Shown here piece after piece: positions 1 to 57,534 of a stretch of DNA of 57,534 bases. A model generated the notes under the pieces. That model saw only the letters and a program-made list of their open reading frames with translations. It was not told the origin of the DNA and did not search any database. A program made the position numbers and the translations under genes. The stretch's first letter is position 1, and each line of letters begins with the position of its first letter. Origin of the DNA: Patescibacteria group bacterium (GTDB taxonomy: Bacteria > Patescibacteriota > Minisyncoccia > Phycocordibacterales > Phycocordibacteraceae); assembly GCA_040384705.1 (NCBI GenBank), contig JAZKIU010000002.1:1-57534 (forward strand), written 5' to 3'.

Positions 1-79
1 GTAGCGAGGAAGAGCGTGGAGGTCGCGCTCAAGGTCGTACCGTTCGCCGCGTAGTACGGGAACTGGCCGGTGGTGCCCG
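1..79 (-). repeat. Intragenic repeat copy, pairs with 3832..3910
   Basis: 79 nt with 1 mismatch to 3832..3910. The offset of 3831 nt (1277 codons) is in frame. It encodes ...GTTGQFPYYAANGTTLSATSTLFLAT. The repeat may extend left of the window. Confidence 0.9.
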
Positions 80-3000: not shown

Positions 3001-6000
3001 GTCGTCGCGGTGTCTCCATTGTTCGTCTGGATGCTGAACTTCGCATACGGGGAGGAGGTACCGACGCCGAGCTTGCCGCTCGTCGGGAGCGTGAAGACGG
3101 TCGTCGTTGCAGGAAGAGTTCCGAAGACGAGGCCACCGATGTTGAGCTGGTTATTTGCGGTTCCTGATGGGAAGAATGTGTTGTTGCCGATGCCGATGTT
3201 GCCGGAGCCGGTCGTGAGATCGTTGTCGGAAGTCGAAGGACCGATGAGGATGTTGCTGTGCCCGGTCGAGACCAACTTACCCGACTGGTATCCCAGGAAG
3301 GTGTTGTAGTCGGAGCCGGTGACCATGGCATTACCGGCCTGATAACCGATAACGGTATACCCGCGAGCATTGAACGGCAGGCTGCCGGCAGAGAACGCAC
3401 CTATCGCTATAGTTGCGGTCGCGCTCGTATTGTTAGTGGATGCCTGGTAGCCGACCGCGACGTTATTACTTCCGGTGACGGTCTGCGAAAGTGCCGAATC
3501 CCCGACCGCGACGTTGTCTGTACCAGTCGTATTCCTCCGGAGCGCCTGGAAGCCGAACGCATCGTTACTGAGCCCGGTAGTGTTCGCGCTGAGCGCTCGG
3601 TAGCCGAAGGCAGATAGACGGAACGTTCCGCTCGTCGTCGCATTCTGGCCGCCAGCCTCAAGGCCGAAGATCGTCGTCGAATGCGTCGACGACGCATACC
3701 CGAGCAGGCGTCCGTCCAGCTTGTACCCGCCGGTGATAGCGGATGTATTGAAGAACCCGGATGCGTAGACGTCGCCCGCGACACCGAGCTTGGCCGCTGG
3801 TGTGGTCGAGCCGATGCCGACGTTGCCGGTAGTAGCGAGGAAGAGCGTGGAGGTCGCGCTCAAGGTCGTACCGTTCGCCGCGTAGTACGGGAACTGGCCC
3901 GTGGTGCCCGCGCCTGTCACGCCAAGCCCGAGGGAACTGGTTGCGGTGAGGGTGTACCCCCCTGCTGCATTCCCCACCAGTATCTGTCCGTACGATGGGA
4001 GCGTTGAGAGTCCGGTGCCTCCATATGCCACTGAGATGGTTGAGGAGGCGGAGACCACGCCGTTGAGCGCTTGGAGCGGACCGGTGAGCGAGCCGATGGT
4101 CATGCCGCCCGAGAAGATGTTGCTGCCAGTGAAGGTGTTGGCGGTGTACGCCTTCGGTATCGTCGTGGAGGCGTGGATGTATGCGTTGACCGAGGCGTCG
4201 AAGTCGCTGATGGTCGACGCCGCTTGCGTCCCCGTGTGGTTCGCGCGGTCGAGATAGTAGGAACCTTCCTGGCCGTCGAAGGTGCCGGTCCAGTCGCCTG
4301 ACACACTTGCATTGAGGACACCGGCAGTGATGGTAAGCCCCGTACCAGTGATGTCGGTGAGATAGTCCGCGCCGAGCGCGAAGCCGGTAAAGGCGCCAGC
4401 GGCTGCGGTTGAAGTACCCGACAATATTGCGTTACCCGCGTTGGTCACAGAAAAGAGGGTCGATGTCGCGCTTGCGGTGGAGGAGCCGATGGCGAAGAGA
4501 GTCGTCGCGGTGTCTCCATTGTTCGCGTGGATGCTGAACTTCGCAGCCGAAGATGACGACCCTACGGAGAGAGTGCCGGTGGTCGGGAGTCTGAATACGC
4601 TATCGGTCGACGTCGCCGGGAGCGTACCGAATACGAAGTTACCGAGATTGAACTGATTATTCCCCGTCGCGCTCGGGAAGCGGGAATTGAAGCCGATGCC
4701 GATATTGTTATCGCCGGTCGTGATATATCCAGCACCGGTGGTGTTGGTCTGCGCACCGAGGATGATGTTGTTGTACCCAGTGGTGTTGAGGTACCCAGCC
4801 TGGAACCCGAGGAAAGTGTTGTAGTCGGACTGGTTGCTGACCCTATACCCGGCACGATGCCCGAGATACACGCTCCCTTGCGAGGCGAAGAGACCGGATC
4901 CGGTGCCGGCCTGCGTACCGATGGCGACCGTGCTCGTCGCGGCGGTCGCGAGCGTCAGCGCCTCGTAACCCATGACTACGTTGTCCTGTCCCGTCGCCAA
5001 TAGTGGTGCAGCATTGAAGCCCATCACCGTGTTACCGCTGCCTCTCGTGTTGGACGACAGCGCAAGATCGCCTACCGCCGTATTGTTGCCGCCGACCGTA
5101 TTCAGTTCGAGCGCTCGCTGACCGATAGCGGTGTTGTGCTCTCCCGTGGTGTTCGCGCTGAGCGCCCGGGAACCGAAGGCACTGTTGCTGAAGATGCCCG
5201 AAGATGTCGTTGCGCTCTGTCCGCCGGCACCGATACCGAAGACGGTGACGGCGTTCGTGGACGACGCATATCCCACGAGCTGGTTGTCTATCTTGTACCC
5301 GCCCGTGGTTCCGCTGGTATTGAAGAAGCCGGATGCATAGACGTCGCCCGCGACACCGAGCTTCGCTGCAGGAGTCGTCGTGCCGATACCAACGTTCGTA
5401 CCGGTGCTGTTGTATATGTCGGAGCCGGAGACGGACCAGTAGTTGGAGAGACCCAAGCTCGATGTCGCCGTCAGCGTATACCCTCCTGCACTGTTCCCCA
5501 CCAGTATCTGTCCGTACGAGGGGAGCGTTGAGAGTCCGGTGCCTCCATATGCCACTGAGATGGTTGAGGAGGCGGAGACCACGCCGTTGAGCGCTTGGAG
5601 CGGACCGGTGAGCGAGCCGATGGTCATGCCGCCCGAGAAGATGTTGCTGCCAGTGAAGGTGTTGGCGGTGTACGCCTTCGGTATCGTCGTGGAGGCGTGG
5701 ATGTATGCGTTGACCGAGGCGTCGAAGTCGCTGATGGTCGACGCCGCTTGCGTCCCCGTGTGGTTCGCGCGGTCGAGATAGTAGGAACCTTCCTGGCCGT
5801 CGAAGGTGCCGGTCCAGTCGCCCGTTGCGTTGAGGGTGAGGGCGCCACCCACATTGCTGAGCCCGGTGCCCGTGAGGTCGGTGAAGGTCTCGCTGTTAAT
5901 ACCGAGGGAGGAGGTGGTGGCGTTGGTGGTGAGGATGTTCCCGAATGTCTGCGTTCCTGCCCAGGTGTTGCTGGTGGTGGTGCCGAAGGCGAGGCTTATC

Positions 6001-9000
6001 GCATTAAGGGTGCGCACGAGCGGGTATGCAAAGGAGAGGGCGTTCTCGTAATCGACGCCGGCGAGGGCCGAGAGTATGCCGCCCGTACCGTTCCCCTTCA
6101 GAATACCCGTGAGCGTGGTGGAGCCGGTGCCGCCGTACGCCACCGAGATGGTGGAGGAGGCGGATACCACCCCGTTGAGCGCTTGAAGAGGACCGGTGAG
6201 CGAGCCGAGGGTGAGATTTCCTGCAGTGACCGTACCGGTCGCGGTAAGGTTCGCGAGCGAGAGATTGCCGGAGAAGAGCGCGTTGCCCTGCACCGAGAGC
6301 TGGGTCGACGCGGTGGTCGTACCGATGCCGAGGAAGTTGGAGAAGTACGACTTGCCGTGCACTTCGAAGATGCTCGTGAGTGTCGAGGTCGCGCTGTTCC
6401 CTACGATGACCACATCCGAGGTGTCGGCCGGATAGACAGCGAGGCTGTCGGAGGTCGTGGCCCATGCGCCTGCGCCCCCGCCGCCGCCGGTCGTTAGATC
6501 AGCGCCCCACGCAGGAAGGCCGCCCGTCACCTTGAGCACCTGGCTCGGATTCCCTATTGGAAGCCTCGTCAGATTGCCCGAACCGTCAGCGTAGATGAGA
6601 TCGCCCGCCGCGTAGCTATCGAAGCCGGTGCCGCCGCGCGCCTGCCCGAGCGTGCCGGTAGTGTCGCCAAGCGCTATGCCGAGCGTCGATGTGGCGCGCG
6701 TTCCCCATGCGGAACCGGTCCAGGAAAGCAGATCACCGAATGCGCTACCGCCGATGTGCGGGACGGTCGATGAGCCGCTGATGTAGGAGCCCACCGCTGC
6801 GCTGAAATCAGAGATGGTCGACGCCACTTGGGTACCCGTGTGGTTGGCGCGGTCGAGGTAGTAGGAACCTTCCTGGCCGTCGAAGGTGCCGGTCCAGTCG
6901 CCCGTTGCGTTGAGGGTGAGGGCGCCACCCACATTGCTGAGCCCGGTGCCCGTGAGGTCGGTGAAGGTCTCGCTGTTAATACCGAGGGAGGAGGTGGTGG
7001 CGTTGGTGGTGAGGATGTTCCCGAATGTCTGCGTTCCTGCCCAGGTGTTGCTGGTGGTGGTCGAGAGTGCACTAGCGAAGACGCCTGTCGAGCTGTTGTA
7101 CGTGAGCGGGTAGACCGCGGAGAGCGATGTGGAGGAGACCTTGTTGTTGAAGACGGACCAGTCAGCTGGGATGAGGAAGCCCTTGGTCGAAGCGGAGGCC
7201 GCCTGACCGTTGGTGTAGTCGATGGAAATGTTGCCGGACGTCGCGTCGAAGTCCGCAGCAGTGAAGCTCGCAGCACCCTTCGTGGTCCCGTCTGCTGCGG
7301 CGTTCTGTATGGAAAGCGTGGAGCCGCTAAAGGAAAGCGGTGAGGAGACGGTAGTCGACTGCGCTTGTCCGCTCGCATTGGTGGAAAGGAGCGAAGAGGT
7401 CACGCCTGTGATCGCGAGGTTGGTCGACGTTGCGGTGCCGACCACCGTGAATCCGCCGTTCACGGTTGAGGACGCGGTCGAGAGGAATCCGCTCGTGAAC
7501 GTCTGGAGCGCGCCCCAGGTGTTGGCGGTCGTGGTGCCGAACGCGAGGCTGATGACATTGCTTGCGATCTGGAGAGGGTAGGTCGCGCCCGTGATGCGCG
7601 CGAGGTATGCAGCATTCCATTCCGTCGTCGAAGCGGTGAGCGGGATCACATAACCGGACGTGAGGGAGAAGTCGCCGGTGCCGCTGGTGTACGTGAGGCC
7701 GGTGGCGGACGAAGAGAAGAGGCCGCGCGCGGTAGAAGCGAAGTCGCTGATGGTCGAAGCGAGCTGTGTCCCCGTGTGGTTGGCGCGGGCGAGATAGTAC
7801 GCGCCTTCCTGGCCATCCAGCGTTCCCGTCCAGTCGCCGGTCCTATCGAGCGTGAGCGCGCCTGCGGTTATGACGAGTCCGGAGCCGGTGAGGTCAGTAA
7901 GGTAGTCGCTGCCGAAACGGAGCGCGTTCGTTATCTGCGCGAGCGCGAAGGTAGAAGTTGCGGTGGTCGAGGTCGCGGTGAAGTATTCCGCGACCGCCTG
8001 CCCTACCACCGAGAGCTTCGCGTACGGCGAAGTGGTGCCGATGCCGACGTTCCCCGTCGGCGATACGAAGACGCTCGATGTCGCGGAGACCGTCGTGCCG
8101 TTCGATTCGTAGTATGCAATCTGGCCAGCGGTACCGGTGTTCACGGTGCCTGACCCACCGCCTCCTCCGCCCGTGACGCATGTCCCGTTTACCGCGAAGC
8201 AGCCGCCCGTGAGATTGATGCCGCCCGTCGCGTAGAAGGTGGAGGTCGCGGTGGTGAAGTTCGCGATGTTCGCGAGCGAGAGGAGCGAGCCAGGCGTCGA
8301 GGTGCCGACACCTACGTTGCCCGAGGAGTCGACGGTGATACGCGGAAGGTTATTCGTCTCGAGCTGGAGGCCCTGCGCGTCATTGGTGCCGAGCACCGCG
8401 GTCGTGCCGAAACTGTTCCCGTTCTGGAGGAAGAAGCCGGATGCGAGGCTCGAGGTCGAGACCGAGAGGACACCGCTCGCATTCATGAGGCCGTTGCCGA
8501 GAAGCGACGTGAAGAGATTGCTACCGAGGCGGAAGTTCGTCGTCGAGAAGGTGGTGGAGGTTGCGTATGTCGAGGAAGCGTTCGTCGCGAGGATCGTATC
8601 GATGTATGCGTTGCGCCAGGTGCGGGTCGACGACCCGAGGTCGTAGGTGCTCGTGGTGGACGGGATGAGCGACGAATCGATGGAGGAATTGATAGTGAGC
8701 GTGTCGCTCGAAGCATCGCCGAGGGTCGTGTTGCCGTTCGCCGCGATGTTGCCGGAGAAGACCGACGTTGCGGTGGTCGAGGTCGCGAGCACGTACGGTC
8801 CTGCGAGATAGTCGCCCGCCTCGATGCGCTTCGCGTAGAAGCCGCCCGCGAAGCTCGAGGTCGCGGTGGTCGAGGTGGCGGTGAACGATGGCCCGATGAG
8901 CGAGCTCGTGACGGAGAGGTTCGAGACGGTGAAGCTACCGACCGTGAGCGTTCCGGTGATGTTCGAGTCGCCGGTGACGGTGAGGTCGCCATTCACGGTG

Positions 9001-10727
9001 GTGTTGCCTGCGGAGAGCGCACCGGCGAACGCTCCAGTCGTATCGACGATGAGCGAGTTCACATGGATATCACCCGAGACCGAGGTTATGCCGCCACCCC
9101 CGCCATCGTTCTGGTTCTCGGCGTTCGTATTGATAGCTCGCTGGAGCCTGGCGACCCACGTATCGACGTATGCGATAGAGGCGCCTTCAGTGAACTGGTT
9201 CTGGTAGATGTTCTGCACCACCGTGCTCGTACCGGTACTGATGATATTCGTGGTGCCTGCGCCCGTTCCGGAGCGAGGATAATCGACCATGACTATCGGG
9301 AACCGGTTCGTGTACGGGTCGGTGAAGGTGGCGACCGCATAGCCCGCCCAGTCGAAGAATGCGGAGAAGGAACCGTAGGTGGCCCGTGCCAAGTACTGGG
9401 CACGGCCGAGGAACCAGCTCGGCAGCAGGGATACCGCGTCAGATGGGAAGGCAGCGAATGGCGAAGCAAGCCCCGCATTTGCAGCGACCGCCACGATCGG
9501 TTCTTCCTCGACGTACGCCAGCTCTTGTTCCTCTGCCGCGAGCGTCTTCGAAGCGTCCTCGCGCGCAGGCGTGCCGATGAGTCCTGCGTCGTACGCAAGC
9601 GAACCGAACGAGGTACCTATCGCGAGTTCGGTCGTGAGCGCTTGATGAGCGATGGTTCGGCTCGCCTCGGAGAAATCCGTGACACTGCGCTCGTATGCGA
9701 GGGGGGCCGTATGGATGCCGGTCGCAAGCGAGCTAGAGATGTTCCTTCCGAGTGCGAGCGCGCTCTCCGTCGCGAACGCAGGCACATCGTGCGCGCCCTC
9801 GGCCCATGCATACACGCCATGCTCGTACGCGTCCTGTACTGCGGTCACTCCCGCTGCGAATGAATTCCCGAATGAAAGGTAGGTGGCGGGAAGCGTTGCG
9901 ACGCCATCCCGTATGAATACTCCTATCGAAAGAAGACTGCTTCCGCTTCCATCGATGTGTGCGAGATATGCGCGCTTCGCATGCTCGACGCTTGCGAGCG
10001 GATCAAGGAGTGTTACGACCGCGTCATGCGCAAGATTCGCGGATGGATCCGGGACGAACGCGGTGCGCTCCTCGATGAGGGTGAACGCGGAAAATCCGGC
10101 GGGTGCGGATAGCACGTCCGCACTAGTCAGCATCGCGCTGCCGAACGCAAGAATATCTACGGGTTCCGGCGCAGCCACCGCGTACACGTGAGGAGAAGAA
10201 ACGGACGAGTTGCTCTCGATGCCGCGAATGCTGGTAGCGAGGCGAAGGCTGGTATCGACGAACGAGGCGATGAGACCCGAGGAAGCGACAGCTGAACTCG
10301 CCCCAAGAATGACTATAGTGAGCGCGAGCGCATACACCTGCCGAGTAAATACGGCGATCTTCGACGCATAAGGCGATGGAACCGATGTGATTGGGACGTG
10401 TCGTGGTACCGGCGCGACTGACTGCACCACTTCCTTTACAACCTCAATTTCCGCTGGCTCTACAACATCCTTGACCGTTTCGCTAACTACTTTCTGATAT
10501 TCAACCTCACGCGCCTTAGACAAGGACTCAGCGAGTACTCGCTTTCGCTCCTCCTGTTCGCGAACGAACGCGAGTACGGATTCCTTCGAGACGAGCCATG
10601 CGCGACCGATTTGCTGTCCATCGATTTTTCCGGCACGGCACATGCGTGCGAGGTAGTCCGAATGGTACCCCGAAATTTCCGAGGCTTCCTTAGTCGAGAT
10701 TAAATTGTTTTCAAGGAGTGGATGCAT
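1..10727 (-). CDS. Giant surface fibre/adhesin-like protein: N-terminal excisionase/MerR-type HTH, one TM helix, then >3,400 aa of repetitive Thr/Ser/Gly/Asn-rich extracellular sequence. C-terminus lies beyond the window (partial, >=3575 codons).
   Basis: Hand translation of the minus strand. ATG at 10727, with an in-frame TAG 21 nt upstream, gives MHPLLENNLISTKEASEISGYHSDYLARMCRAGKIDGQQIGRAWLVSKESVLAFV... The TM helix is IAVFTRQVYALALTIVILGASSAVASSGLIASF. The same frame is still open at base 1 (...GTTGQFPYYAANGTTLSATSTLFLAT), and 10727-5 is divisible by 3. No in-frame stop was seen in the parts translated. It is absent from the ORF track because it has no stop in the window; all track ORFs in 1-10200 are other frames or antisense. 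Confidence 0.85.
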   Translation of the reverse strand, partial: MHPLLENNLISTKEASEISGYHSDYLARMCRAGKIDGQQIGRAWLVSKESVLAFVREQEERKRVLAESLSKAREVEYQKVVSETVKDVVEPAEIEVVKEVVQSVAPVPRHVPITSVPSPYASKIAVFTRQVYALALTIVILGASSAVASSGLIASFVDTSLRLATSIRGIESNSSVSSPHVYAVAAPEPVDILAFGSAMLTSADVLSAPAGFSAFTLIEERTAFVPDPSANLAHDAVVTLLDPLASVEHAKRAYLAHIDGSGSSLLSIGVFIRDGVATLPATYLSFGNSFAAGVTAVQDAYEHGVYAWAEGAHDVPAFATESALALGRNISSSLATGIHTAPLAYERSVTDFSEASRTIAHQALTTELAIGTSFGSLAYDAGLIGTPAREDASKTLAAEEQELAYVEEEPIVAVAANAGLASPFAAFPSDAVSLLPSWFLGRAQYLARATYGSFSAFFDWAGYAVATFTDPYTNRFPIVMVDYPRSGTGAGTTNIISTGTSTVVQNIYQNQFTEGASIAYVDTWVARLQRAINTNAENQNDGGGGGITSVSGDIHVNSLIVDTTGAFAGALSAGNTTVNGDLTVTGDSNITGTLTVGSFTVSNLSVTSSLIGPSFTATSTTATSSFAGGFYAKRIEAGDYLAGPYVLATSTTATSVFSGNIAANGNTTLGDASSDTLTINSSIDSSLIPSTTSTYDLGSSTRTWRNAYIDTILATNASSTYATSTTFSTTNFRLGSNLFTSLLGNGLMNASGVLSVSTSSLASGFFLQNGNSFGTTAVLGTNDAQGLQLETNNLPRITVDSSGNVGVGTSTPGSLLSLANIANFTTATSTFYATGGINLTGGCFAVNGTCVTGGGGGGSGTVNTGTAGQIAYYESNGTTVSATSSVFVSPTGNVGIGTTSPYAKLSVVGQAVAEYFTATSTTATSTFALAQITNALRFGSDYLTDLTGSGLVITAGALTLDRTGDWTGTLDGQEGAYYLARANHTGTQLASTISDFASTARGLFSSSATGLTYTSGTGDFSLTSGYVIPLTASTTEWNAAYLARITGATYPLQIASNVISLAFGTTTANTWGALQTFTSGFLSTASSTVNGGFTVVGTATSTNLAITGVTSSLLSTNASGQAQSTTVSSPLSFSGSTLSIQNAAADGTTKGAASFTAADFDATSGNISIDYTNGQAASASTKGFLIPADWSVFNNKVSSTSLSAVYPLTYNSSTGVFASALSTTTSNTWAGTQTFGNILTTNATTSSLGINSETFTDLTGTGLSNVGGALTLNATGDWTGTFDGQEGSYYLDRANHTGTQVASTISDFSAAVGSYISGSSTVPHIGGSAFGDLLSWTGSAWGTRATSTLGIALGDTTGTLGQARGGTGFDSYAAGDLIYADGSGNLTRLPIGNPSQVLKVTGGLPAWGADLTTGGGGGAGAWATTSDSLAVYPADTSDVVIVGNSATSTLTSIFEVHGKSYFSNFLGIGTTTASTQLSVQGNALFSGNLSLANLTATGTVTAGNLTLGSLTGPLQALNGVVSASSTISVAYGGTGSTTLTGILKGNGTGGILSALAGVDYENALSFAYPLVRTLNAISLAFGTTTSNTWAGTQTFGNILTTNATTSSLGINSETFTDLTGTGLSNVGGALTLNATGDWTGTFDGQEGSYYLDRANHTGTQAASTISDFDASVNAYIHASTTIPKAYTANTFTGSNIFSGGMTIGSLTGPLQALNGVVSASSTISVAYGGTGLSTLPSYGQILVGNSAGGYTLTATSSLGLSNYWSVSGSDIYNSTGTNVGIGTTTPAAKLGVAGDVYASGFFNTSGTTGGYKIDNQLVGYASSTNAVTVFGIGAGGQSATTSSGIFSNSAFGSRALSANTTGEHNTAIGQRALELNTVGGNNTAVGDLALSSNTRGSGNTVMGFNAAPLLATGQDNVVMGYEALTLATAATSTVAIGTQAGTGSGLFASQGSVYLGHRAGYRVSNQSDYNTFLGFQAGYLNTTGYNNIILGAQTNTTGAGYITTGDNNIGIGFNSRFPSATGNNQFNLGNFVFGTLPATSTDSVFRLPTTGTLSVGSSSSAAKFSIHANNGDTATTLFAIGSSTASATSTLFSVTNAGNAILSGTSTAAAGAFTGFALGADYLTDITGTGLTITAGVLNASVSGDWTGTFDGQEGSYYLDRANHTGTQAASTISDFDASVNAYIHASTTIPKAYTANTFTGSNIFSGGMTIGSLTGPLQALNGVVSASSTISVAYGGTGLSTLPSYGQILVGNAAGGYTLTATSSLGLGVTGAGTTGQFPYYAANGTTLSATSTLFLATTGNVGIGSTTPAAKLGVAGDVYASGFFNTSAITGGYKLDGRLLGYASSTHSTTIFGLEAGGQNATTSGTFRLSAFGYRALSANTTGLSNDAFGFQALRRNTTGTDNVAVGDSALSQTVTGSNNVAVGYQASTNNTSATATIAIGAFSAGSLPFNARGYTVIGYQAGNAMVTGSDYNTFLGYQSGKLVSTGHSNILIGPSTSDNDLTTGSGNIGIGNNTFFPSGTANNQLNIGGLVFGTLPATTTVFTLPTSGKLGVGTSSPYAKFSIQTNNGDTATTLFAIGSSTASATSTLFSVTNTGNAILSGTSTAAGGSFTGFALGADYLSDITGTGLSISGGSLNVNVTGDWTGTFDGQEGAYYLARANHTGTQAASTISDFNDSVNAYIHASTTIPKAYTANTYTALNTFNGGLTIGSLTGPLQALNGVVSATTSIGVLYGGTGLTSAPSYGQVLVGNGSGGYTLTATSSLGYSFFQQDGNSFANTATLGTNDDNALAFETNGTNRIFIENTGNVGIGNGSPASVVGYTVVSIGNATSGGSLSFQQNGTNRAYIYNSAGANVLNLEAAAGVNVTDGSNSRLYIDTATGNVGIGTSSPYARLSVAGQAVASYFTSTSTTVNTFPTLLTTNATTSSLGINSETFTDLTGTGLSNVGGALTLNATGDWTGTFDGQEGAYYLARANHTGTQAASTISDFDASVNAYIHASTTIPKAYTANTFSALNTFNGGLTIGSLTGPLQALNGVVSASSTISVAYGGTGLSTLPSYGQILVGNSAGGYTLTATSSLGLGTVGSGTTGQFPYYAANGTTLTATSSLSISTSGAVSVKAGSDIAQLHIGNFATLESKFNGDAEESLSLTSTESVDVKLGAGGFFNVYDSTDTFVFYVDDEGSVLSQGSGSFAGIFGVAGDTFLQQDALIGATLAVGTSTTPLRQVTIATSTLPQLMLADGSTSSNPYNFRSINGNLYIATSSPTTYATSSMSALTINTNGYLGIGTTTPGSPLSIGGIANFTTATSTLYGTGGINLTSGCFAVNGTCVGAAGGSGTVGSGTTGQFPYYAANGTTLTATSSIFLATSGYVGIGSTAPLAPLYVSTSKDAYTNLGDVANYNTVFKLTTASTGVGQGIAWSAGTNPNVGAGIVFQRTDTFSKGQLEFYIKQSNADAVAPILSMVISDSGRVGIGTSSPYAKLSVVGEVVASHYTATTTATSTFAGGLNVLAINQTGSASSTFANGINLASGCFAVNGTCVGSGSGSGTVGSGTTGQFPYYAANGTTLSATSTLFLA
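1861..1969 (-). repeat. Intragenic repeat copy, identical to 5827..5935 and 6907..7015
   Basis: 109 nt identical by eye. The offset of 3966 nt (1322 codons) is in frame. Confidence 0.85.
3832..3910 (-). repeat. Intragenic repeat copy, pairs with 1..79
   Basis: See 1..79. Confidence 0.9.
3971..4298 (-). repeat. 328-nt near-identical intragenic repeat, copy 1
   Basis: Matches 5495..5822 with a single mismatch seen (gtacgaTggg vs gtacgaGggg). The offset is 1524 nt (508 codons). Antisense track ORFs 3901..4257 and 5443..5781 share an identical 80+ aa tail as a by-product. Confidence 0.92.
5495..5822 (-). repeat. 328-nt near-identical intragenic repeat, copy 2
   Basis: See 3971..4298. Confidence 0.92.
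5779..5981 (-). repeat. 203-nt identical intragenic repeat, copy 1
   Basis: Identical by eye to 6859..7061. The offset is 1080 nt (360 codons). It overlaps the previous repeat family, so the repeats are mosaic. Confidence 0.9.
6859..7061 (-). repeat. 203-nt identical intragenic repeat, copy 2
   Basis: See 5779..5981. Confidence 0.9.
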
Positions 10728-10786
10728 GTCGGATAACCGAATTAACTAAATTCTATCTGTCTTTTCGGAAATACCGCAGTAATTTT

Positions 10787-10846
10787 TGTGGATAGCTTTA
10801 GAAACTTTTCATGAAGGGAATTTACTCATCACGCGCGAAAAGTTTT
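10787..10846 (-). promoter_or_regulatory. Upstream motif of the giant gene: TGTGGATAGCTTTA (near DnaA-box 9-mer) plus inverted repeat GAAACTTTTC / GAAAAGTTTT
   Basis: tgtggatagcttta at 10787..10800 matches tgtggataacttta at 17657..17670 in 13 of 14 positions. gaaaagtttt at 10837..10846 is identical to 17673..17682. gaaacttttc at 10801..10810 is its near-perfect inverted partner. The function is unknown. Confidence 0.35.
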
Positions 10847-11088: not shown

Positions 11089-11114
11089 AAATAAAAAACT
11101 CCGCATGTGCGGAG
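11089..11114 (-). terminator. Rho-independent terminator downstream of 11167..12141
   Basis: The minus strand reads CTCCGC-acat-GCGGAG followed by TTTTTTATTT. Confidence 0.8.
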
Positions 11115-11166
11115 ATTTTACTTGGTACCAATCTCGTATATACGAGACGAGAAATGCTTTACATAC

Positions 11167-12141
11167 CTACTTCTTTATCTCGCTCTCTCCGCGTACGAAA
11201 TCAAATACATGTCCGCGTACGCTTGTATCAATCCCGCGTTGAGCTAGAAATGCATCCATTACTCCGCTACCTACAAGGGCGGTTATGAGCGCCATACCTG
11301 CCACAGCTACCAGCACCGCTTGAATGCTGTTCACCCTTGAGCGTGATTTCCCGGTAATAGGCGCAGCGATTCGAGCATTCGTTCTTGGTCGAGGCGCTGA
11401 CGTTCTCCTCGATAGATCAATGACTCCCCCGCTAACATGCGCACGCGGTGGCATAGCTTCGGCAGGAGATGGTTCAGGTCGCTTTATGGTAAATGGAACT
11501 CTCTCCTCTTCTTCAAATGAATCGAACTGCTCCTGCGCTTCGACATTCGATTGAGGGATTGTCGCTGGCGGTATTAGCTCCTGTGAAACATTAGATATGT
11601 TGTATTCATTAGATATGTCGGTTGCCCGAACCGCGACAGTATCTTCTTCGGGCATTTCTACCGGTGACTCAACCTCGACTTCCAATTGGGGGTACGGCTC
11701 ATCCTCCATTGCCTTCTCCTCGTTCTGAGGAAGCGATCTTTCGCGCGTCTCGAACCACTCCTTCCAGGCATCTTGCATCATGGAAACAGCTGGTGTGGGC
11801 TCCACTGCTTCCACAACCACCTCTGGTGGCTTTGTAGCAGCAAATACGGGCATAAGCGGTGCTTCGGGCTCAGATACGTAGCGCGGAGCCTCCCATATCG
11901 CCGTAGATGCCTCCACCTTGAATTCAGACGAGTCCGTTGCTACCTCTTTCTTCACTGATTCGTTGCCAAAACGATGCGCTCTTATGGCAGATTCCAGTAC
12001 ATACCAGCTTCGTCCGACCAAACGAGCCTCGACACGACCCTCTCGGCACAATTGGCCGACATAATCCTTCGCATATCCTGTTATCTTGGCCGCCCGCTTC
12101 GACGAGATATATATCTTGTCTCCAATAGTCAGTTCATCCAT
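11167..12141 (-). CDS. HTH (excisionase/MerR-like) protein with long acidic Pro/Glu-rich linker and C-terminal TM helix; paralogue of the N-terminus of the giant protein
   Basis: 324-aa ORF. Its N-terminus IYISSKRAAKITGYAKDYVGQLCREGRVEARLVGRSWYVLESAIRAH aligns with giant-protein residues 9-56. The TM helix is IQAVLVAVAGMALITALVGSGVM, near the C-terminus. It has its own -10 box and terminator. Confidence 0.8.
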   Translation of the reverse strand: MDELTIGDKIYISSKRAAKITGYAKDYVGQLCREGRVEARLVGRSWYVLESAIRAHRFGNESVKKEVATDSSEFKVEASTAIWEAPRYVSEPEAPLMPVFAATKPPEVVVEAVEPTPAVSMMQDAWKEWFETRERSLPQNEEKAMEDEPYPQLEVEVESPVEMPEEDTVAVRATDISNEYNISNVSQELIPPATIPQSNVEAQEQFDSFEEEERVPFTIKRPEPSPAEAMPPRAHVSGGVIDLSRRTSAPRPRTNARIAAPITGKSRSRVNSIQAVLVAVAGMALITALVGSGVMDAFLAQRGIDTSVRGHVFDFVRGESEIKK

Positions 12142-12147
12142 GCTTTG

Positions 12148-12153
12148 AGTATA
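12148..12153 (-). promoter_or_regulatory. -10 box TATACT, 6 nt upstream of the ATG at 12141 (leaderless-type)
   Basis: The minus strand reads GCTTATACTCAAAGC-ATG. Confidence 0.55.
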
Positions 12154-12214
12154 AGCTTTTCTCGTCTTGTATGAAATGGGTTGTTAACAAGATTCATATA
12201 TGATTCGAGGACAA

Positions 12215-13706: not shown

Positions 13707-14681
13707 CTACCGTCCGGGCGTGAGCTCTTTCGTGAGCCTGTCCGCGAACGCTTTCAGGAGCTCGTCATCGATGACCGAGAGCGGTATGACCTCCTTCCCT
13801 ATCGCCTTGGAGAGGGTGGCAACAGCGGCTTCCCGCTCTGATTCAGGCAGTATATCCACCTTGGAGAGGACAACGATCTCCTGCTTATCCGTAAGATTCC
13901 CATCGACGGTAGCGAGCTCTTTTCGTATATCCTGATAGCTTTTTGCAGGGTCTTCTTGTTCAGCCGAGACGAGATGCACAAGGAATCGCGTGCGTTCGAT
14001 ATGGCGAAGGAACTTGGCTCCGAGACCTCGTCCGCTCGAGGCTCCCTCGATGAGACCAGGAATATCAGCGAGAAGGAACCCGTAGAAGTCACCGAGATGG
14101 GGGTCGAGCGTGGTGAATGGATATGCCGCCACCTTGGACTTGGAGCGGGTAAGCGAGTTCACGAGGGAGGACTTCCCCGCGTTCGGGAAGCCGATGAATC
14201 CAGCGTCCGCGATGAGTTTGAGGGTGATATGGATATCCCCACCCTGCCCCTTCTTACCCTTCGTGGTCTCGAACGGATTGCGGTTAACCGAGCTCTTGAA
14301 GTGGGCATTGCCGAACCCGCCTCCCCCTCCCTTATAGACGATGATGCGCTCGCCCTCCGAGAGTATCTCGTAGGTCTCGCCGGTAGAGGTCGTCGCAACG
14401 GTACCCACCGGTACCCGTATCACTGCTGGCTCGCCATCTTTCCCATGCTTGTCGTTGCCTCCTCCTGGGCCTCCGTCCTCTCCCTTGAAGCTCTTCGTGA
14501 ACCGGTATGACGCGAGTACCGCGAGATCGCGCACTCCCTCGAGCACGACATCACCGCCACGCCCGCCATCACCGCCGGCAGGCCCCGCTTTCTCGAGCCC
14601 CTTCAAGTGGAGCCAACGCACGACGCCATCGCCACCGCGGCCAGCGGTTGCGCGTACGTTCATTTCATCGACGAGTGCCAT
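13707..14681 (-). CDS. obg: GTPase Obg/CgtA
   Basis: The Obg fold appears as MALVDEMNVRATAGRGGDGVV...GGDGGRGGDV. G motifs are GFPNAGKSS and DIPGLIEGA. The track ORF extends to 14762, but that extension crosses the secA terminator palindrome. The ATG at 14681 matches the usual Obg N-terminus. Confidence 0.92.
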   Translation of the reverse strand: MALVDEMNVRATAGRGGDGVVRWLHLKGLEKAGPAGGDGGRGGDVVLEGVRDLAVLASYRFTKSFKGEDGGPGGGNDKHGKDGEPAVIRVPVGTVATTSTGETYEILSEGERIIVYKGGGGGFGNAHFKSSVNRNPFETTKGKKGQGGDIHITLKLIADAGFIGFPNAGKSSLVNSLTRSKSKVAAYPFTTLDPHLGDFYGFLLADIPGLIEGASSGRGLGAKFLRHIERTRFLVHLVSAEQEDPAKSYQDIRKELATVDGNLTDKQEIVVLSKVDILPESEREAAVATLSKAIGKEVIPLSVIDDELLKAFADRLTKELTPGR

Positions 14682-14718
14682 ATAACTTGAGCCTACCTGG
14701 TCGCGCATGAAAATACCA

Positions 14719-14758
14719 GAAAGGCCCCCGAGCTCCATATGGAGCTCGGGGGCCTTTC
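14719..14758 (-). terminator. Perfect 40-nt palindrome (up to 20 bp self-complementary per arm; no unpaired centre) immediately after the secA stop; likely terminator or attenuator
   Basis: gaaaggcccccgagctccat|atggagctcgggggcctttc. On the minus strand it is followed by TGGTATTTTC. Confidence 0.65.
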
Positions 14759-14768
14759 TCAAACGAGA

Positions 14769-17386: not shown

Positions 17387-17524
17387 TTACTTGCGCTTCT
17401 TTGCTGCCTTGCGCTTGGTCGTCTTCTTTGCAGTAGACTTCTTTGCGGCCTTCTTTGCAGGCTTGCGCTTGGTCGTCTTCTTTGCAGTAGACTTCTTCGC
17501 AACCTTCCTCTTTTTTGCTGCCAT
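17387..17524 (-). CDS. 45-aa lysine-rich basic protein (histone H1/Hc1-like low-complexity DNA-binding type)
   Basis: Hand translation gives MAAKKRKVAKKSTAKKTTKRKPAKKAAKKSTAKKTTKRKAAKKRK*. It is below the 60-aa track cutoff. It contains an internal direct repeat (KKSTAKKTTKRK twice) and is followed by its own terminator. The overlapping 87-aa Arg-rich track ORF is another frame and runs through that terminator. Confidence 0.55.
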   Translation of the reverse strand: MAAKKRKVAKKSTAKKTTKRKPAKKAAKKSTAKKTTKRKAAKKRK

Positions 17525-17656: not shown

Positions 17657-17682
17657 TGTGGATAACTTTATAGAAAAGTTTT
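17657..17682 (-). promoter_or_regulatory. Second copy of the TGTGGATAACTTTA...GAAAAGTTTT motif; contains a perfect DnaA-box 9-mer (TTATCCACA on the minus strand)
   Basis: See 10787..10846. It lies about 130-160 nt upstream of the Lys-rich gene. Confidence 0.35.
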
Positions 17683-56513: not shown

Positions 56514-57534
56514 ATTGGATATGTTCCACGACCAGCTTCCGCTAGCCGTGCCTTGTTACGACTTACTCCCTGTCACTGAATTTACCGTAGTCCTGCGTAA
56601 AGCAAGATTTCGGGTACCCCCAGCTTCCTTGAGTTGACGGGCGGTGAGTACAAGACTCGAGAACGTATTCACCCTGGTATGGCTGACCCAGGATTACTAG
56701 CGATTCCATCTTCACGAGGTCGGTTGCAGACCTCGATCCGTACTGGGGTCGGTTTTGGGGATTTGCTCCACCTTACGGTATTGCGTCCTTCTGTACCGAC
56801 CATTGTATCACGTGTGCAGCCCCAGGCATCAAGGGACATGCTGATTTGGCGTCATCCACACCTTCCTCCCCCGTGAGGGGGCAGTCTCGCCTGACATATA
56901 TAACAGACAACGTGGGTTGCGTTCGTTACCCCACTGAAGGGAACAGCTCAAGCCACGAACTGACGACAACCATGCATCACCTGCCAAACACCCTCGAAGG
57001 CTTCCTCCGTTTCTGGAGGCGTGCAGTTTGGTTTCTAGCCTGGGTAAGGTTCTTCGCTTACCGACGAATTAAGCCACATGATCCACCGCTTGTGCGAGTC
57101 CCCGTCTATTCCTTTGAGTTTTAATCTTGCGATCGTACTACCCAGGCGGCTCGCTTACCGCGTTAGCTTAGTCCCGCAGAGGGTCGATACTCCGCAGAAC
57201 GAGCGAGCAACGTTTAGGGCCAGGACTACTGGGGTATCTAATCCCATTCGCTACCCTGGCTTTCGTGTGTGAGCGTCAGATTCGGGCCAGTGCACTGCCT
57301 TCGCCTTTGGTGTTCCCCACGATATCAACGGATTTCACCCCTACACCGTGAGTTCCATGCACCTCTCCCGACCTCAAGTCATGCCGTTTCTCCCGCGGGC
57401 CAGAAGTTGAGCTCCTGGATTTTACGGAAGACTAACATGACCGCCTTGACACCCTTTACGCCCAATGATTCCGGATAACGCTTGGGGCCTCTGTATTACC
57501 GCTCCTGCTGGCACAGAGTTAGGAGCCCCTTATT
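56514..57534 (-). rRNA. 16S rRNA, 3' ~1,020 nt (5' part beyond the window)
   Basis: The reverse complement contains GTGCCAGCAGGAGCGGTAATACAG (57491..57514, a variant of the 515 region). It also contains GGATTAGATACCCCAGTAGTCC (57223..57244) and AAGTCGTAACAAGG (56551..56564). Helix 45 is CACGGCTAGC-GGAA-GCTGGTCGTG. The 3' end was estimated by alignment to the E. coli tail. Confidence 0.9.

What the first reader, a model, noticed from the sequence alone, without database searches (positions are those of the whole stretch)
11167..12141. Neighbouring 324-aa paralogue carries the same HTH and TM helix but no fibre
- Residues 10-57 (IYISSKRAAKITGYAKDYVGQLCREGRVEARLVGRSWYVLESAIRAH) align without gaps to giant-protein residues 9-56, at roughly one third identity by eye.
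- Both proteins also share a TM helix followed by a similar juxtamembrane segment (SGLIASFVDTSLRLATSIRG vs SGVMDAFLAQRGIDTSVRG).
- Here the HTH and TM helix are separated by an acidic Pro/Glu-rich linker of about 225 aa, and only about 30 residues are extracellular.
- Two adjacent genes with the same HTH-TM chassis suggest a family of membrane-tethered HTH proteins. They could act as partner or decoy, or form a heteromeric anchor. Each gene has its own promoter and terminator.
Basis: partly seen in the sequence, partly recalled or inferred. Interest (0 to 1): 0.65.

Follow-up and report, generated by a model that had tools for sequence, protein, structure and literature searches.

The report
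Membrane-anchored HTH partner of giant protein
A small, very conserved membrane-anchored protein with a DNA-binding-type domain sits just upstream of a giant surface-fibre gene that starts with a related domain; the pair is kept together in at least 73 species of ultra-small Paceibacteria, which points to an undescribed link between cell surface and DNA.

Summary
The ORF is real (11167-12141, minus strand, 324 aa). Its first ~60 residues are homologous to the N-terminus of the giant ORF that starts at 10727 (BLASTP E=6e-12; family profile comparison 98.6%, E=6e-16). Each protein has one hydrophobic helix. The TM and juxtamembrane similarity is not significant.

The organism is a Paceibacteria (Patescibacteria) bacterium.
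- The small protein belongs to a large unnamed family (1,682 database hits).
- Its winged HTH has an Xis/BldC-like fold and is about 83% identical across species. That is more conserved than SecA.
- The "linker" holds invariant motifs.
- In 73 of 74 related species loci with enough sequence, a gene with the giant-type HTH follows on the same strand. Its length ranges from 248 to more than 3,300 aa.

Conserved non-coding elements surround the pair.
- A CGAGACGAGA element lies in the small gene's leaderless-type promoter.
- Its inverted copy lies just after the stop codon.
- A third copy is embedded in obg, where synonymous sites are frozen.
- A palindrome abuts the giant's ATG.

Best reading: a tail-anchored DNA-binding protein that autoregulates and works with the giant's HTH. 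DNA binding and partnership are inferred, not shown. I rate it a new variant of membrane-tethered HTH proteins, of moderate to high interest.

The parts
11167..12141 (-). Small gene: 324-aa single-pass membrane protein with the HTH at the N-terminus and the TM helix near the C-terminus
   Evidence: ORF list and translation. There are 1,682 homologues, mostly full length at 270-330 aa.
11965..12141 (-). Residues 1-59: winged helix-turn-helix (strand-strand-helix-helix-strand-strand-helix) of the HTH_17 / excisionase / MerR-like type. It is nearly invariant in the family.
   Evidence: - Pfam HTH_17, E=5.9e-4.
- AF2 pLDDT above 90.
- Foldseek matches Xis 4j2n (TM-score on the target 0.70) and BldC 6ama (0.77).
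- Median 83% identity over 82 loci.
11878..11895 (-). Invariant W83-x-x-P86-x-Y88 motif in the cytoplasmic region
   Evidence: Alignments A1 and A2
11734..11793 (-). Residues 117-136: conserved amphipathic helix (M122-Q-x-A-W-x-x-W-F130)
   Evidence: Invariant columns. AF2 models a helix with pLDDT about 93.
11335..11733 (-). Residues 137-269: disordered acidic Pro/Glu-rich spacer that ends in a basic cluster (7 Arg/Lys in the 25 residues before the TM helix)
   Evidence: Composition. pLDDT below 55. Variable in length and sequence across the family.
11257..11334 (-). Residues 270-295: transmembrane helix with invariant G291 and G293
   Evidence: Hydropathy, AF2 helix 268-292, invariant columns
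11170..11256 (-). Residues 296-324: short tail outside the cytoplasm, with two short helices and invariant G318
   Evidence: The N-in/C-out topology is inferred from the positive-inside rule.
12148..12175 (-). Promoter-like site TTCATA-16-TATACT. The -10 box ends 6 nt before the ATG, which indicates a leaderless-type transcript.
   Evidence: Consensus scan. A TAyAnT box ends 6-7 nt before the ATG in 76 of 83 distinct upstream regions.
12158..12169 (-). Conserved CGAGACGAGA(A/T)A-type element (here CAAGACGAGAAA) in the promoter spacer; a candidate operator
   Evidence: Conserved across loci. The core AGACGAGAAA occurs exactly only twice in the 57.5-kb window.
11143..11154 (-). Inverted copy of that element (TTTCTCGTCTCG), 13 nt after the stop codon. 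It is usually the 5' arm of a hairpin.
   Evidence: TCGTCTCG is present just after the stop in 51 of 74 distinct loci (two further matches lie elsewhere in the spacer). Exact match in the window. Hairpin mean z = -1.68, but some loci have no hairpin.
11099..11114 (-). Terminator-like hairpin CTCCGCACATGCGGAG followed by TTTTTTATTT
   Evidence: Consensus scan
13965..13974 (-). Third copy of TCTCGTCTCG, embedded in obg (codons His-Leu-Val-Ser), where synonymous sites are almost invariant
   Evidence: The GTC codon is used in 99% and TCG in 100% of species, against a median top-codon share of 0.43 over 70 conserved degenerate codons.
10728..10755 (-). Conserved region just before the giant's ATG: TAGAAT-T-TAGTTAA-TTCGG-TTAT-CCGAC. 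The arms TCGG and CCGA are conserved and the centre varies.
   Evidence: An exact TTCGG-N(2-4)-CCGA match lies just upstream of the giant-type gene in 52 of 74 distinct loci; the other loci carry close variants.
10787..10794 (-). TATCCACA box 31 nt upstream of the giant's -10-like hexamer
   Evidence: About 70 loci carry it here. The same box sits upstream of a small Lys/Ala-rich protein gene.
10548..10727 (-). Giant protein residues 1-60: the paralogous HTH_17 domain
   Evidence: Pfam 32.4 bits, BLASTP and hhalign
10263..10340 (-). Giant protein residues about 130-155: the single N-terminal TM helix (signal anchor). The repeat-rich Thr/Ser/Gly ectodomain follows and runs off the window.
   Evidence: Hydropathy, sequence. 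No Pfam domain beyond HTH_17.

Best explanation
The 324-aa protein is the small, constant member of a conserved two-gene module of a Paceibacteria (Patescibacteria) clade.

Shown:
- It is a single-pass membrane protein.
- Its N-terminal ~60 residues form an Xis/BldC/MerR-like winged HTH, homologous to the N-terminus of the giant protein encoded immediately downstream.
- This HTH is more conserved than SecA.
- The module is kept together in 73 of 74 species loci.
- Both genes are surrounded by conserved non-coding elements.

Inferred:
- The HTH faces the cytoplasm and binds DNA. The most likely target is the CGAGACGAGA element. That element sits in the spacer of the gene's own leaderless-type promoter, again inverted just after its stop codon, and a third time inside obg.
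- The protein would therefore autoregulate and hold this locus at the membrane.
- It probably acts together with the giant protein's HTH as a hetero-oligomer. This would mirror Xis and BldC, which bind DNA as head-to-tail arrays, and related Paceibacteria proteins that carry two such HTHs in one chain.
- In this way the variable surface fibre would be coupled to a constant cytoplasmic DNA-binding unit.
For: - Homology of the two HTHs.
- Fold of the small HTH: AF2 pLDDT above 90. Foldseek best matches are the DNA binders Xis 4j2n, BldC 6ama, TraN 4p0z, RacA 5i44 and RdfS 8dgl.
- The HTH has a net charge of about +4, counted from the sequence.
- Topology: one TM helix preceded by 7 Arg/Lys.
- Family size and conservation: 1,682 hits; 221 species genomes, all but a few evidently mislabelled records titled Patescibacteria or a constituent group.
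- Conservation level: the HTH is 83% identical to the window's copy at the median, against about 75% for SecA and about 65% for Obg and GatB.
- Module conservation: 73 of 74 loci have a giant-type HTH gene a median 593 nt downstream on the same strand, with lengths of 248 to more than 3,300 aa. The pair survives a change of upstream context in L042.
- Candidate operators: the element lies in the promoter spacer, and its inverted copy follows the stop codon.
- A third copy in obg has frozen synonymous sites.
- The 5' arm sequence is kept even where no hairpin can form, which argues for sequence recognition rather than structure.
- HTHs of this type often work in pairs: 51 of 148 top relatives have tandem HTHs before the TM helix, and the closest solved tandem is TraN.
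Against: - No experiment or transcript data exist. Only three DNA metagenome runs hold the sequence.
- The small protein's HTH_17 score is below Pfam's cut-off.
- The whole secA-obg-gatB-small-giant block is syntenic in 83 of 84 loci. Adjacency could therefore be inherited rather than selected, and only one locus breaks the context.
- Nothing links the conserved DNA elements to this protein rather than to another factor or to an RNA-level role.
- I could not scan whole genomes, so the specificity of the element rests on 57.5 kb plus 1.24 Mb of the same region.
- No physical small-giant interaction could be modelled.
- The TM regions are not demonstrably homologous.
Confidence: 0.45

Rival explanations
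1. The small protein is an independent membrane-bound regulator or housekeeping factor. It lies next to the giant gene only because the whole secA-obg-gatB region is syntenic in this clade. The two HTHs are old paralogues with unrelated roles.
For: - gatB is immediately upstream in 83 of 84 loci, and secA and obg are also in place.
- The two genes have different conserved upstream elements.
- The small gene has a terminator-like site after it.
- The small HTH is far more conserved (83%) than the giant's (about 58%).
Against: - The pair stays together in L042, where the upstream genes differ.
- Insertions occur between secA and obg and between obg and gatB, but the small-giant order is never broken in 73 of 74 loci.
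- Tandem HTH-TM relatives suggest these domains work in pairs.
Confidence: 0.25
2. The HTH is used for protein-protein contacts rather than DNA binding, as in RodZ, whose HTH binds MreB. The small protein would then be a membrane scaffold that recruits a conserved cytoplasmic partner (a cytoskeletal, secretion or division protein). It might do so to help export or position the giant fibre.
For: - Near-invariance of the whole 60-residue domain, plus extra invariant cytoplasmic motifs (W-x-x-P-x-Y, M-Q-x-A-W-x-x-W-F), fits a conserved protein partner.
- The architecture (HTH, spacer, basic juxtamembrane stretch, TM helix) resembles RodZ; this comparison rests on my own knowledge.
- secA is a near neighbour.
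Against: - The closest structures are all DNA binders.
- The HTH is basic.
- Conserved, gene-specific DNA elements sit exactly at this gene's promoter and 3' end.
- There is no Pfam match to RodZ-type domains.
Confidence: 0.15
3. The conserved TCTCGTCTCG / CGAGACGAGA copies are RNA-level signals unrelated to the HTH protein. They could be long-range pairing, processing or stability elements in read-through transcripts from obg-gatB. The protein's target would then lie elsewhere.
For: - Two of the three copies lie on the coding strand inside transcribed regions.
- The central copy is complementary to both.
- A local hairpin follows the stop codon in about 60% of loci.
Against: - The promoter copy lies upstream of the predicted -10 box of a leaderless-type promoter and after a terminator-like hairpin behind gatB. 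It would therefore often not be transcribed.
- The sequence is kept where no hairpin forms.
- Ten base pairs across 1-1.8 kb is weak pairing.
Confidence: 0.1
4. The gene is a remnant of a mobile element: an excisionase (recombination directionality factor) gene flanked by inverted repeats.
For: - HTH_17 is the excisionase family, and the giant's HTH hits phage excisionase families weakly.
- 12-bp inverted repeats flank the small ORF.
Against: - No integrase or recombinase is nearby.
- The same position between gatB and the giant gene is kept in more than 80 species.
- The protein is 324 aa with a TM helix, and it matches no PHROG family.
Confidence: 0.02

Closest known systems
Xis / BldC / RdfS-type small MerR-like winged-HTH proteins (Pfam HTH_17, TIGR01764 excisionase family)
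   Same: - Same fold for residues 1-58 (Foldseek: Xis 4j2n TM-score on the target 0.70, rmsd 1.6 A; BldC 6ama 0.77).
- Weak HTH_17 sequence match.
- These proteins bind DNA cooperatively as arrays, which would fit HTHs that work in pairs.
   Different: - Those proteins are soluble, 50-80 aa, and have no membrane anchor.
- Here the domain is fused to about 210 cytoplasmic residues, a TM helix and a short external tail.
- There is no integrase or mobile-element context.
- DNA binding has not been shown.
RacA of Bacillus subtilis (MerR-like winged HTH that anchors the chromosome to the cell pole through DivIVA)
   Same: - An N-terminal MerR-like winged HTH followed by a long spacer that leads to a membrane-proximal anchor.
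- Structural match of the HTH (5i44, TM-score on the target about 0.55).
- RacA binds 14-bp inverted repeats, comparable in size to the palindrome at the giant's ATG (RacA facts from my own knowledge).
   Different: - RacA has a coiled coil and binds DivIVA; it has no TM helix.
- There is no sequence relationship beyond the fold.
TraN of plasmid pIP501 (tandem winged-HTH double-stranded DNA binder of a type IV secretion system)
   Same: It is the best structural match for the tandem-HTH relatives of this family (4p0z, E=6e-3). It also matches the single HTH.
   Different: - TraN is cytosolic, with no TM helix.
- The relative arrangement of the two domains does not superpose (rmsd 11 A).
ToxR / CadC / TcpP membrane-bound one-component transcription factors
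   Same: A cytoplasmic N-terminal DNA-binding domain, one TM helix and N-in topology. Some of them work with a second membrane protein (from my own knowledge).
   Different: - Those use an OmpR-type winged helix and a folded periplasmic sensor domain.
- The small protein has only 29 external residues.
- The paralogue's external part is a fibre of thousands of residues.
RodZ
   Same: HTH, spacer, basic juxtamembrane stretch, single TM helix; N-in topology.
   Different: RodZ has an Xre-type HTH that binds MreB and a C-terminal periplasmic domain. Pfam gives no match here.

Membership tests
Pfam HTH_17 (PF12728) / excisionase-family winged HTH | Sequence match at or above the curated gathering score (27 bits) | tested here: not met
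   The small protein scores 20.5 bits, E=5.9e-4. The giant paralogue scores 32.4 bits and meets the cut-off. NCBIfam TIGR01764 matches only the giant, at 23.4 bits against a cut-off of 28.8.
Pfam HTH_17 (PF12728) / excisionase-family winged HTH | Homology to a bona fide member, shown by profile comparison | tested here: met
   hhalign of the small family against the giant N-terminal family: probability 98.6%, E=5.9e-16 over residues 1-69. BLASTP E=6e-12.
Pfam HTH_17 (PF12728) / excisionase-family winged HTH | Compact strand-helix-helix-strand-strand-helix winged-helix fold | tested here: met
   The AF2 model has pLDDT above 90 for residues 1-58. Foldseek matches Xis, BldC and RdfS with probability 0.92-1.0, although the E-values are only 0.07-0.4 because the query is 324 aa.
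Pfam HTH_17 (PF12728) / excisionase-family winged HTH | Sequence-specific DNA binding | not testable with these tools
   Only indirect evidence: conserved candidate sites at its own promoter and 3' end.
Excisionase (recombination directionality factor) of a mobile element | Small stand-alone protein encoded next to an integrase within an integrated element | tested here: not met
   The protein is 324 aa with a TM helix. The neighbours are gatB, obg, secA and murB, and the same position is kept in more than 80 species. No PHROG match.
MerR-family transcription regulators | HTH followed by a long dimerisation coiled coil and a C-terminal effector-binding region; binding within an overlong (19-20 bp) promoter spacer | tested here: not met
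   No Pfam MerR hit. No coiled coil follows the HTH in the model. The promoter spacer is 16 nt. The only resemblance is that the candidate site lies in the spacer.
ToxR/CadC-like membrane-bound transcription factors | OmpR-type winged-helix DNA-binding domain | tested here: not met
   Pfam finds only HTH_17, and the structural neighbours are MerR/Xis-like.
ToxR/CadC-like membrane-bound transcription factors | Single TM helix with a cytoplasmic N-terminus | tested here: inconclusive
   There is one hydrophobic helix, with 7 Arg/Lys on its N-terminal side. The orientation is inferred from the positive-inside rule, not measured.
ToxR/CadC-like membrane-bound transcription factors | Folded periplasmic or external sensor domain | tested here: not met
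   Only 29 residues follow the TM helix.
RodZ | Xre-type HTH (HTH_25) and a C-terminal DUF4115 domain | tested here: not met
   No such Pfam hits at E<=1.
Conserved Paceibacteria 'small HTH-TM' family (unnamed) | MDE(I/L)TIGDK N-terminus; invariant HTH; W-x-x-P-x-Y; M-Q-x-A-W-x-x-W-F; C-terminal TM helix with G-x-G; a giant-type HTH gene downstream | tested here: met
   Alignments A1 and A2. Loci analysis.

The most novel reading that the evidence does not exclude
The small protein and the giant fibre protein form a membrane-embedded hetero-oligomeric DNA-binding complex that docks on conserved sites in and around their own locus. Those sites are the three TCTCGTCTCG elements, the palindrome abutting the giant's ATG and the TATCCACA box. 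The gene would thereby be physically tethered to the membrane. This would couple transcription, translation and Sec-dependent export of a protein of more than 3,500 aa. Alternatively, it would convert contact or tension on the surface fibre directly into transcriptional control, without kinases. Either way it would be a surface-to-chromosome link peculiar to ultra-small Patescibacteria.
Probability: 0.12. Interest if true: 0.85.

Novelty: new variant of a known kind. Interest (0 to 1): 0.6.

Why it matters
Patescibacteria (the CPR) are ultra-small, mostly uncultured bacteria. Giant surface proteins are thought to mediate their attachment to hosts (for example PMC8080830). How these proteins are regulated, exported and anchored is unknown.

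- Here the giant proteins of a whole Paceibacteria clade begin with a cytoplasmic DNA-binding-type domain.
- They are always preceded by a small paralogue lacking an ectodomain, and that paralogue's HTH is more conserved than SecA.
- If the two HTHs bind the conserved DNA elements found around the locus, this would be a simple, previously undescribed way to connect a cell-surface fibre to the chromosome or to gene expression.
- The organisms involved have few regulators, no anti-Shine-Dalgarno sequence and leaderless-type promoters.

The family is large: 1,682 close hits, and 3,568 cluster representatives of the wider HTH-TM set. It has no name, no Pfam or NCBIfam model for the whole protein and no solved relative. 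A modest set of experiments would therefore annotate thousands of 'hypothetical proteins'.

Tried and rejected
- **Giant N-terminus in the word-indexed protein search.** It gave only 4 hits and was uninformative. I replaced it with the exhaustive HMMER search.
- **Sequence search of the small family against PDB.** It returned only a designed coiled coil matching the TM helix, which is meaningless.
- **NCBIfam and PHROGs.** Neither has a family for the small protein.
- **Rfam and tRNA scans of the window.** They found nothing in the 10.7-12.3 kb region.
- **Rosetta-stone idea.** I asked whether tandem-HTH relatives are fusions of a small-type and a giant-type HTH. Scoring each domain with both HMMs gave GG, SS and SG patterns with close scores, so the typing is ambiguous. 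The result shows only that pairs of these HTHs are common.
- **AF2 of a tandem relative.** Both domains are confident, but the tool gives no inter-domain error estimate. The TraN superposition has rmsd 11 A, so nothing can be said about how two HTHs pack.
- **Palindrome before the giant's ATG as an RNA hairpin or lineage-specific Shine-Dalgarno site.** GGAUAU is complementary to the altered 16S tail AUAUCC.
  - Many species change the left arm (TTCGTTC, TTCGCTC) without compensation, so neither reading is supported.
  - No other gene in the window has GGATAT upstream.
- **Invertible-segment or mobile-element reading of the 12-bp inverted repeats.** Rejected, because there is no recombinase and the position is fixed in more than 80 species.
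- **Transcriptomics.** No RNA run holds this sequence.
- **Literature searches.** They found no description of HTH_17-TM or giant HTH proteins in Patescibacteria.
Full report
**1. What is at the coordinates**

- The ORF at 11167-12141 (minus strand) starts with ATG and encodes 324 aa.
- Downstream on the same strand, after a 439-bp spacer, a second ORF starts at ATG 10727. It stays open to the left end of the window, so it is at least 3,575 aa.
- That second ORF is a Thr/Ser/Gly-rich, highly repetitive protein. Its only Pfam domain is an N-terminal HTH_17.
- Upstream on the same strand lie gatB, obg, secA, murB, a Wzy_C/TPR protein and glycosyltransferases.
- The window also holds a 16S rRNA fragment and a tRNA-Ile.
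- Homologues of the small protein come from MAGs labelled Candidatus Paceibacterota, Parcubacteria, Kaiserbacteria or Patescibacteria. The organism is therefore a member of the Paceibacteria.
- The only public runs that hold the sequence are three watershed DNA metagenomes.

**2. Check of the observation**

- The N-terminal similarity is real. BLASTP aligns small residues 12-92 with giant residues 10-91 at 33% identity, E=6e-12.
- I built a profile from 83 small proteins and another from about 70 giant N-termini. They align over residues 1-69 and 1-65 with 98.6% probability, E=5.9e-16.
Small residue 12 pairs with giant residue 10.
- Pfam HTH_17 passes its curated threshold for the giant (32.4 bits) but not for the small protein (20.5 bits, E=5.9e-4).
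- Each protein has exactly one strongly hydrophobic stretch: small 270-295, giant about 130-155.
- In the small protein, seven Arg/Lys lie in the 25 residues before the helix, and the 29 residues after it are about neutral. By the positive-inside rule, the HTH should be cytoplasmic.
- The claimed juxtamembrane similarity (SGLIASFVDTSLRLATSIRG against SGVMDAFLAQRGIDTSVRG) is not significant. BLASTP gives E=1.3 and hhalign gives 1.4% probability. The shared 'TS.RG' is not conserved in either family.
- Paralogy is therefore shown for the HTH only. The shared HTH-spacer-TM plan is real, but it may be either inherited or convergent.

**3. Anatomy of the small protein**

- Alignments of 26 and 117 homologues show an almost invariant N-terminus: MDE(I/L)TIGDKxYISSKRAAKITGYAKDYVGQLCREGRVEARLVGRNWYVLESAIREHRFG.
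- Further invariant positions are W83, P86, Y88, P98 and M122-Q-x-A-W-x-x-W-F130.
- Next comes a variable acidic stretch, then a basic cluster, then a TM helix with invariant G291 and G293, then a short tail with invariant G318.
- AlphaFold2 on the 117-sequence alignment is confident for residues 1-58, which form a strand-strand-helix-helix-strand-strand-helix winged HTH.
- It is also confident for a helix at 117-136, for the TM helix 268-292 and for two short C-terminal helices. The rest is predicted disordered.
- Foldseek against the PDB places the HTH next to mycobacteriophage Xis (4j2n, rmsd 1.6 A), BldC (6ama), TraN (4p0z), RacA (5i44) and the RdfS excisionase (8dgl). All of these are MerR-like or excisionase-type DNA binders.
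- There is no sequence relative in the PDB, no NCBIfam model and no PHROG family.

**4. Conservation and context**

- The word-indexed search found 1,682 relatives, nearly all full length at 270-330 aa.
- A pattern scan of one genome per GTDB species found the gene in 221 species. I analysed the 80 loci that were returned, plus four from contig look-ups.
- I searched all six-frame ORFs with HMMs of the small-type and giant-type HTH.
- In 73 of the 74 loci with at least 1 kb downstream, a gene with a giant-type HTH follows the small gene on the same strand, at a median distance of 593 nt.
- Of those downstream ORFs, 25 are still open at 2,000 aa or more when the locus ends.
- The closed ones range from 248 aa to 3,309 aa, apart from one 46-aa fragment, so the external part is very variable.
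- A few loci carry further giant-type HTH genes, or two HTHs in one giant (L037, L059, L071, L075).
- The small HTH is 83% identical to the window's copy at the median. This compares with about 75% for SecA, about 65% for Obg and GatB, and about 58% for the giant's HTH.
- One caveat matters. The block secA-obg-gatB-small-giant is syntenic in 83 of 84 loci, so adjacency alone is weak evidence of a functional link.
- The one exception is L042. There the upstream genes are an arylsulfotransferase, a sulfatase and an Lnt-like protein, and the small-giant pair is still together.

**5. The wider family**

- HMMER of the giant's first 170 residues against 1.84 billion cluster representatives found 3,568 proteins at E<=1e-3, and 642 at E<=1e-10. 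Their lengths range from 66 to 7,275 aa.
- Ten were looked up by exact sequence. The four that carry an organism name are from Parcubacteria/Paceibacterota and are annotated 'HTH domain-containing' or 'hypothetical'.
- Among the top 148, 51 carry two HTHs in tandem (one carries three), and in most of these a TM helix follows.
- A sister family (P0122 and relatives) has one or two HTHs, a TM helix and a conserved external domain of about 60 aa.
- HTH_17-TM is thus a common chassis in this lineage. These HTHs are often present in pairs, as in TraN, which is the best structural match for the tandem model.
- I could not establish that the tandems are fusions of a small-type and a giant-type HTH. 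The two HMM scores are too close.

**6. Conserved non-coding elements**

These were found while checking the 'own promoter and terminator' claim.

- **(a) Upstream of the small gene.**
  - The consensus is CTaTTcnAtA-CGAGaCGAGA(a/t)A-gcc-TATACT, then 6-7 nt, then ATG.
  - A TAyAnT box ends 6-7 nt before the ATG in 76 of 83 distinct sequences. This indicates a leaderless-type transcript.
  - It fits the 16S 3' end, which lacks the anti-Shine-Dalgarno sequence: GGAACATATCCAAT instead of GGATCACCTCCTTA.
  - It also fits the absence of Shine-Dalgarno motifs before other genes in the window.
  - Loss of the anti-SD is known for a Parcubacteria subgroup (PMC9297842).
- **(b) After the small gene's stop codon.**
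  - Between 7 and 22 nt after the stop lies (A/T)T(A/T)TCTCGTCTCG, the inverted copy of the promoter element. It is present at that place in 51 of 74 distinct loci.
  - In the window, the exact core AGACGAGAAA occurs only at these two places in 57.5 kb.
  - A local hairpin is frequent (mean z = -1.68). Some species have none, yet the sequence is still kept.
  - A separate terminator-like hairpin with a T-run follows at 11114-11099.
- **(c) Inside obg.**
  - A third copy of TCTCGTCTCG lies inside obg, in the codons for His-Leu-Val-Ser.
  - Its synonymous positions are almost invariant: GTC in 99% and TCG in 100% of species. The median top-codon share over 70 conserved degenerate codons of obg is 0.43.
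  - This shows selection on the nucleotide sequence itself.
- **(d) Upstream of the giant.**
  - The conserved pattern is a TATCC(A/C)CA box, a -10-like TAnAAT, and then TAGTTAA-TTCGG-N4-CCGAC directly before the ATG.
  - The arms TCGG and CCGA are conserved and the centre varies.
  - Species that change the left arm do not compensate in the right arm. This argues against a required RNA hairpin.
  - The TATCCMCA box also sits at a similar distance upstream of a conserved 45-aa Lys/Ala-rich protein gene between murB and secA.

**7. Most likely mechanism**

Shown:
- It is a conserved single-pass membrane protein with an Xis/BldC-like HTH that is homologous to the giant's.
- It forms a conserved gene pair with a partner of very variable length.
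- Conserved, locus-specific DNA elements sit at its own promoter spacer and 3' end.

Inferred:
- The HTH is cytoplasmic and binds DNA. The CGAGACGAGA element is the best candidate site, which would give autoregulation from within the promoter spacer.
- Because the protein is membrane-anchored, binding would hold the locus at the membrane.
- The small protein probably cooperates with the giant's HTH. The grounds are the paired and tandem use of these domains in relatives, and the head-to-tail binding mode of the closest structural relatives.
- The near-invariance of the small HTH fits a domain constrained on several surfaces at once: DNA, a neighbouring HTH, and perhaps the 117-136 helix.

I put about 0.45 on this overall reading. 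The rivals are an independent regulator with inherited adjacency (0.25), a RodZ-like protein-binding scaffold (0.15), cis elements that act at the RNA level and are unrelated to the protein (0.1), and a mobile-element remnant (0.02).

**8. Comparison with known systems**

- In how it might work, it resembles membrane-bound one-component regulators (ToxR, CadC) and the chromosome anchor RacA.
- It is not a member of those families. It has no OmpR-type domain, no sensor domain, no coiled coil or DivIVA link and no RodZ domains.
- By fold and by profile homology it belongs to the HTH_17 / excisionase-like superfamily, although it scores below Pfam's own threshold.
- It is not an excisionase in the functional sense.
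- Four literature searches found no description of this architecture in Patescibacteria. Giant CPR surface proteins are discussed only as likely host-attachment factors.

**9. Verdict**

- The interpretation (a family of membrane-tethered HTH proteins, probably partners) is partly supported and considerably extended.
- It is a new variant of a known kind. The function is inferred rather than shown, and it can be tested with simple binding, topology and interaction assays.

Noticed in passing
window 13965-13974 (-), inside obg (13707-14762): TCTCGTCTCG is embedded in the obg codons His-Leu-Val-Ser, and synonymous sites are almost frozen across about 78 species (GTC 99%, TCG 100%, against a median top-codon share of 0.43). 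This is a nucleotide-level element inside a housekeeping gene, identical to the element after the small gene's stop codon.
   Followed up: partly
window 56514-56560 (-), 16S rRNA 3' end; upstream regions of most genes in the window: The 16S 3' end reads GGAACATATCCAAT instead of GGATCACCTCCTTA, so it has no anti-Shine-Dalgarno sequence. No gene checked has a Shine-Dalgarno motif. Several (secA, the Wzy-like gene, a glycosyltransferase, the small gene) have a TATAnT box 6-15 nt before the ATG, which fits leaderless or very short leaders. Anti-SD loss is reported for a Parcubacteria subgroup in PMC9297842.
   Followed up: partly
window 10728-10755 (-): A strongly conserved TAGAAT-T-TAGTTAA-TTCGG-N4-CCGAC abuts the giant's ATG. 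The core GGATATCC contains both the complement of, and an identical copy of, the altered 16S tail AUAUCC. Variants change the left arm without compensation, so neither a hairpin nor a special ribosome-binding site is supported.
   Followed up: partly
window 10787-10794 (-) and 17657-17664 (-): A TATCC(A/C)CA box lies about 31-40 nt upstream of the -10-like hexamer, both at the giant gene (about 70 loci) and at a small Lys/Ala-rich protein gene between murB and secA (about 33 loci). This suggests a shared upstream promoter element or a common regulator site. A third conserved cluster lies on the opposite strand inside obg (48 loci) and may simply reflect coding constraint.
   Followed up: partly
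window 17387-17524 (-): A conserved 45-aa Lys/Ala-rich, histone-H1-like basic protein (MAAKKRKVAKKSTAKKTTKRKPAKKAAKKSTAKKTTKRKAAKKRK) with an internal repeat, followed by a terminator-like hairpin. An orthologue is present in L001 (4581-4754, 57 aa). It has no Pfam family in the precomputed tables.
   Followed up: partly
window 11617-11630 (-), inside the small gene: A second match to TTCGG-N4-CCGAC (TTCGGGCAACCGAC) lies within the variable coding part of the small gene. Five of 100 shuffles give two or more matches, so it is probably chance.
   Followed up: no
P0122, P0163, P0164, P0177, P0248 and relatives (alignment A4): A sister family in other Paceibacteria has one or two HTH_17 domains, a TM helix and a conserved external C-terminal domain of about 60 aa (...SFSDEV.V.PD.SGTAGVITPVFK...DFVYVLVPV) of unknown function.
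   Followed up: partly
L071 19392-19470; L059, L071, L075 downstream parts: Some species have additional giant-type HTH genes after the first giant. In L071 the TCTCGTCTCG hairpin element recurs between the giant's stop codon and the next HTH gene. Other complete giants are followed directly by gapA, without the element.
   Followed up: partly
window 1-10727 (-): The giant ORF has long near-identical internal repeats (for example the ...TGDWTGTFDGQEGSYYLDRANHTGTQ... units recur five or more times) and poly-Gly hinges. Its strand shows a marked GC skew of +0.10 to +0.16. Apart from HTH_17, Pfam gives only weak hits, below or barely at their cut-offs with no domain passing on its own (Bactofilin, TonB_2, Imm33).
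   Followed up: no
loci L005, L014, L016, L023 and others (record titles): Many MAGs that carry this Paceibacteria-specific syntenic block are labelled 'uncultured Candidatus Saccharibacteria'. One (L023) is labelled Bacillota, and one protein is labelled Nanoarchaeia. These are probably mislabelled bins or contamination.
   Followed up: no
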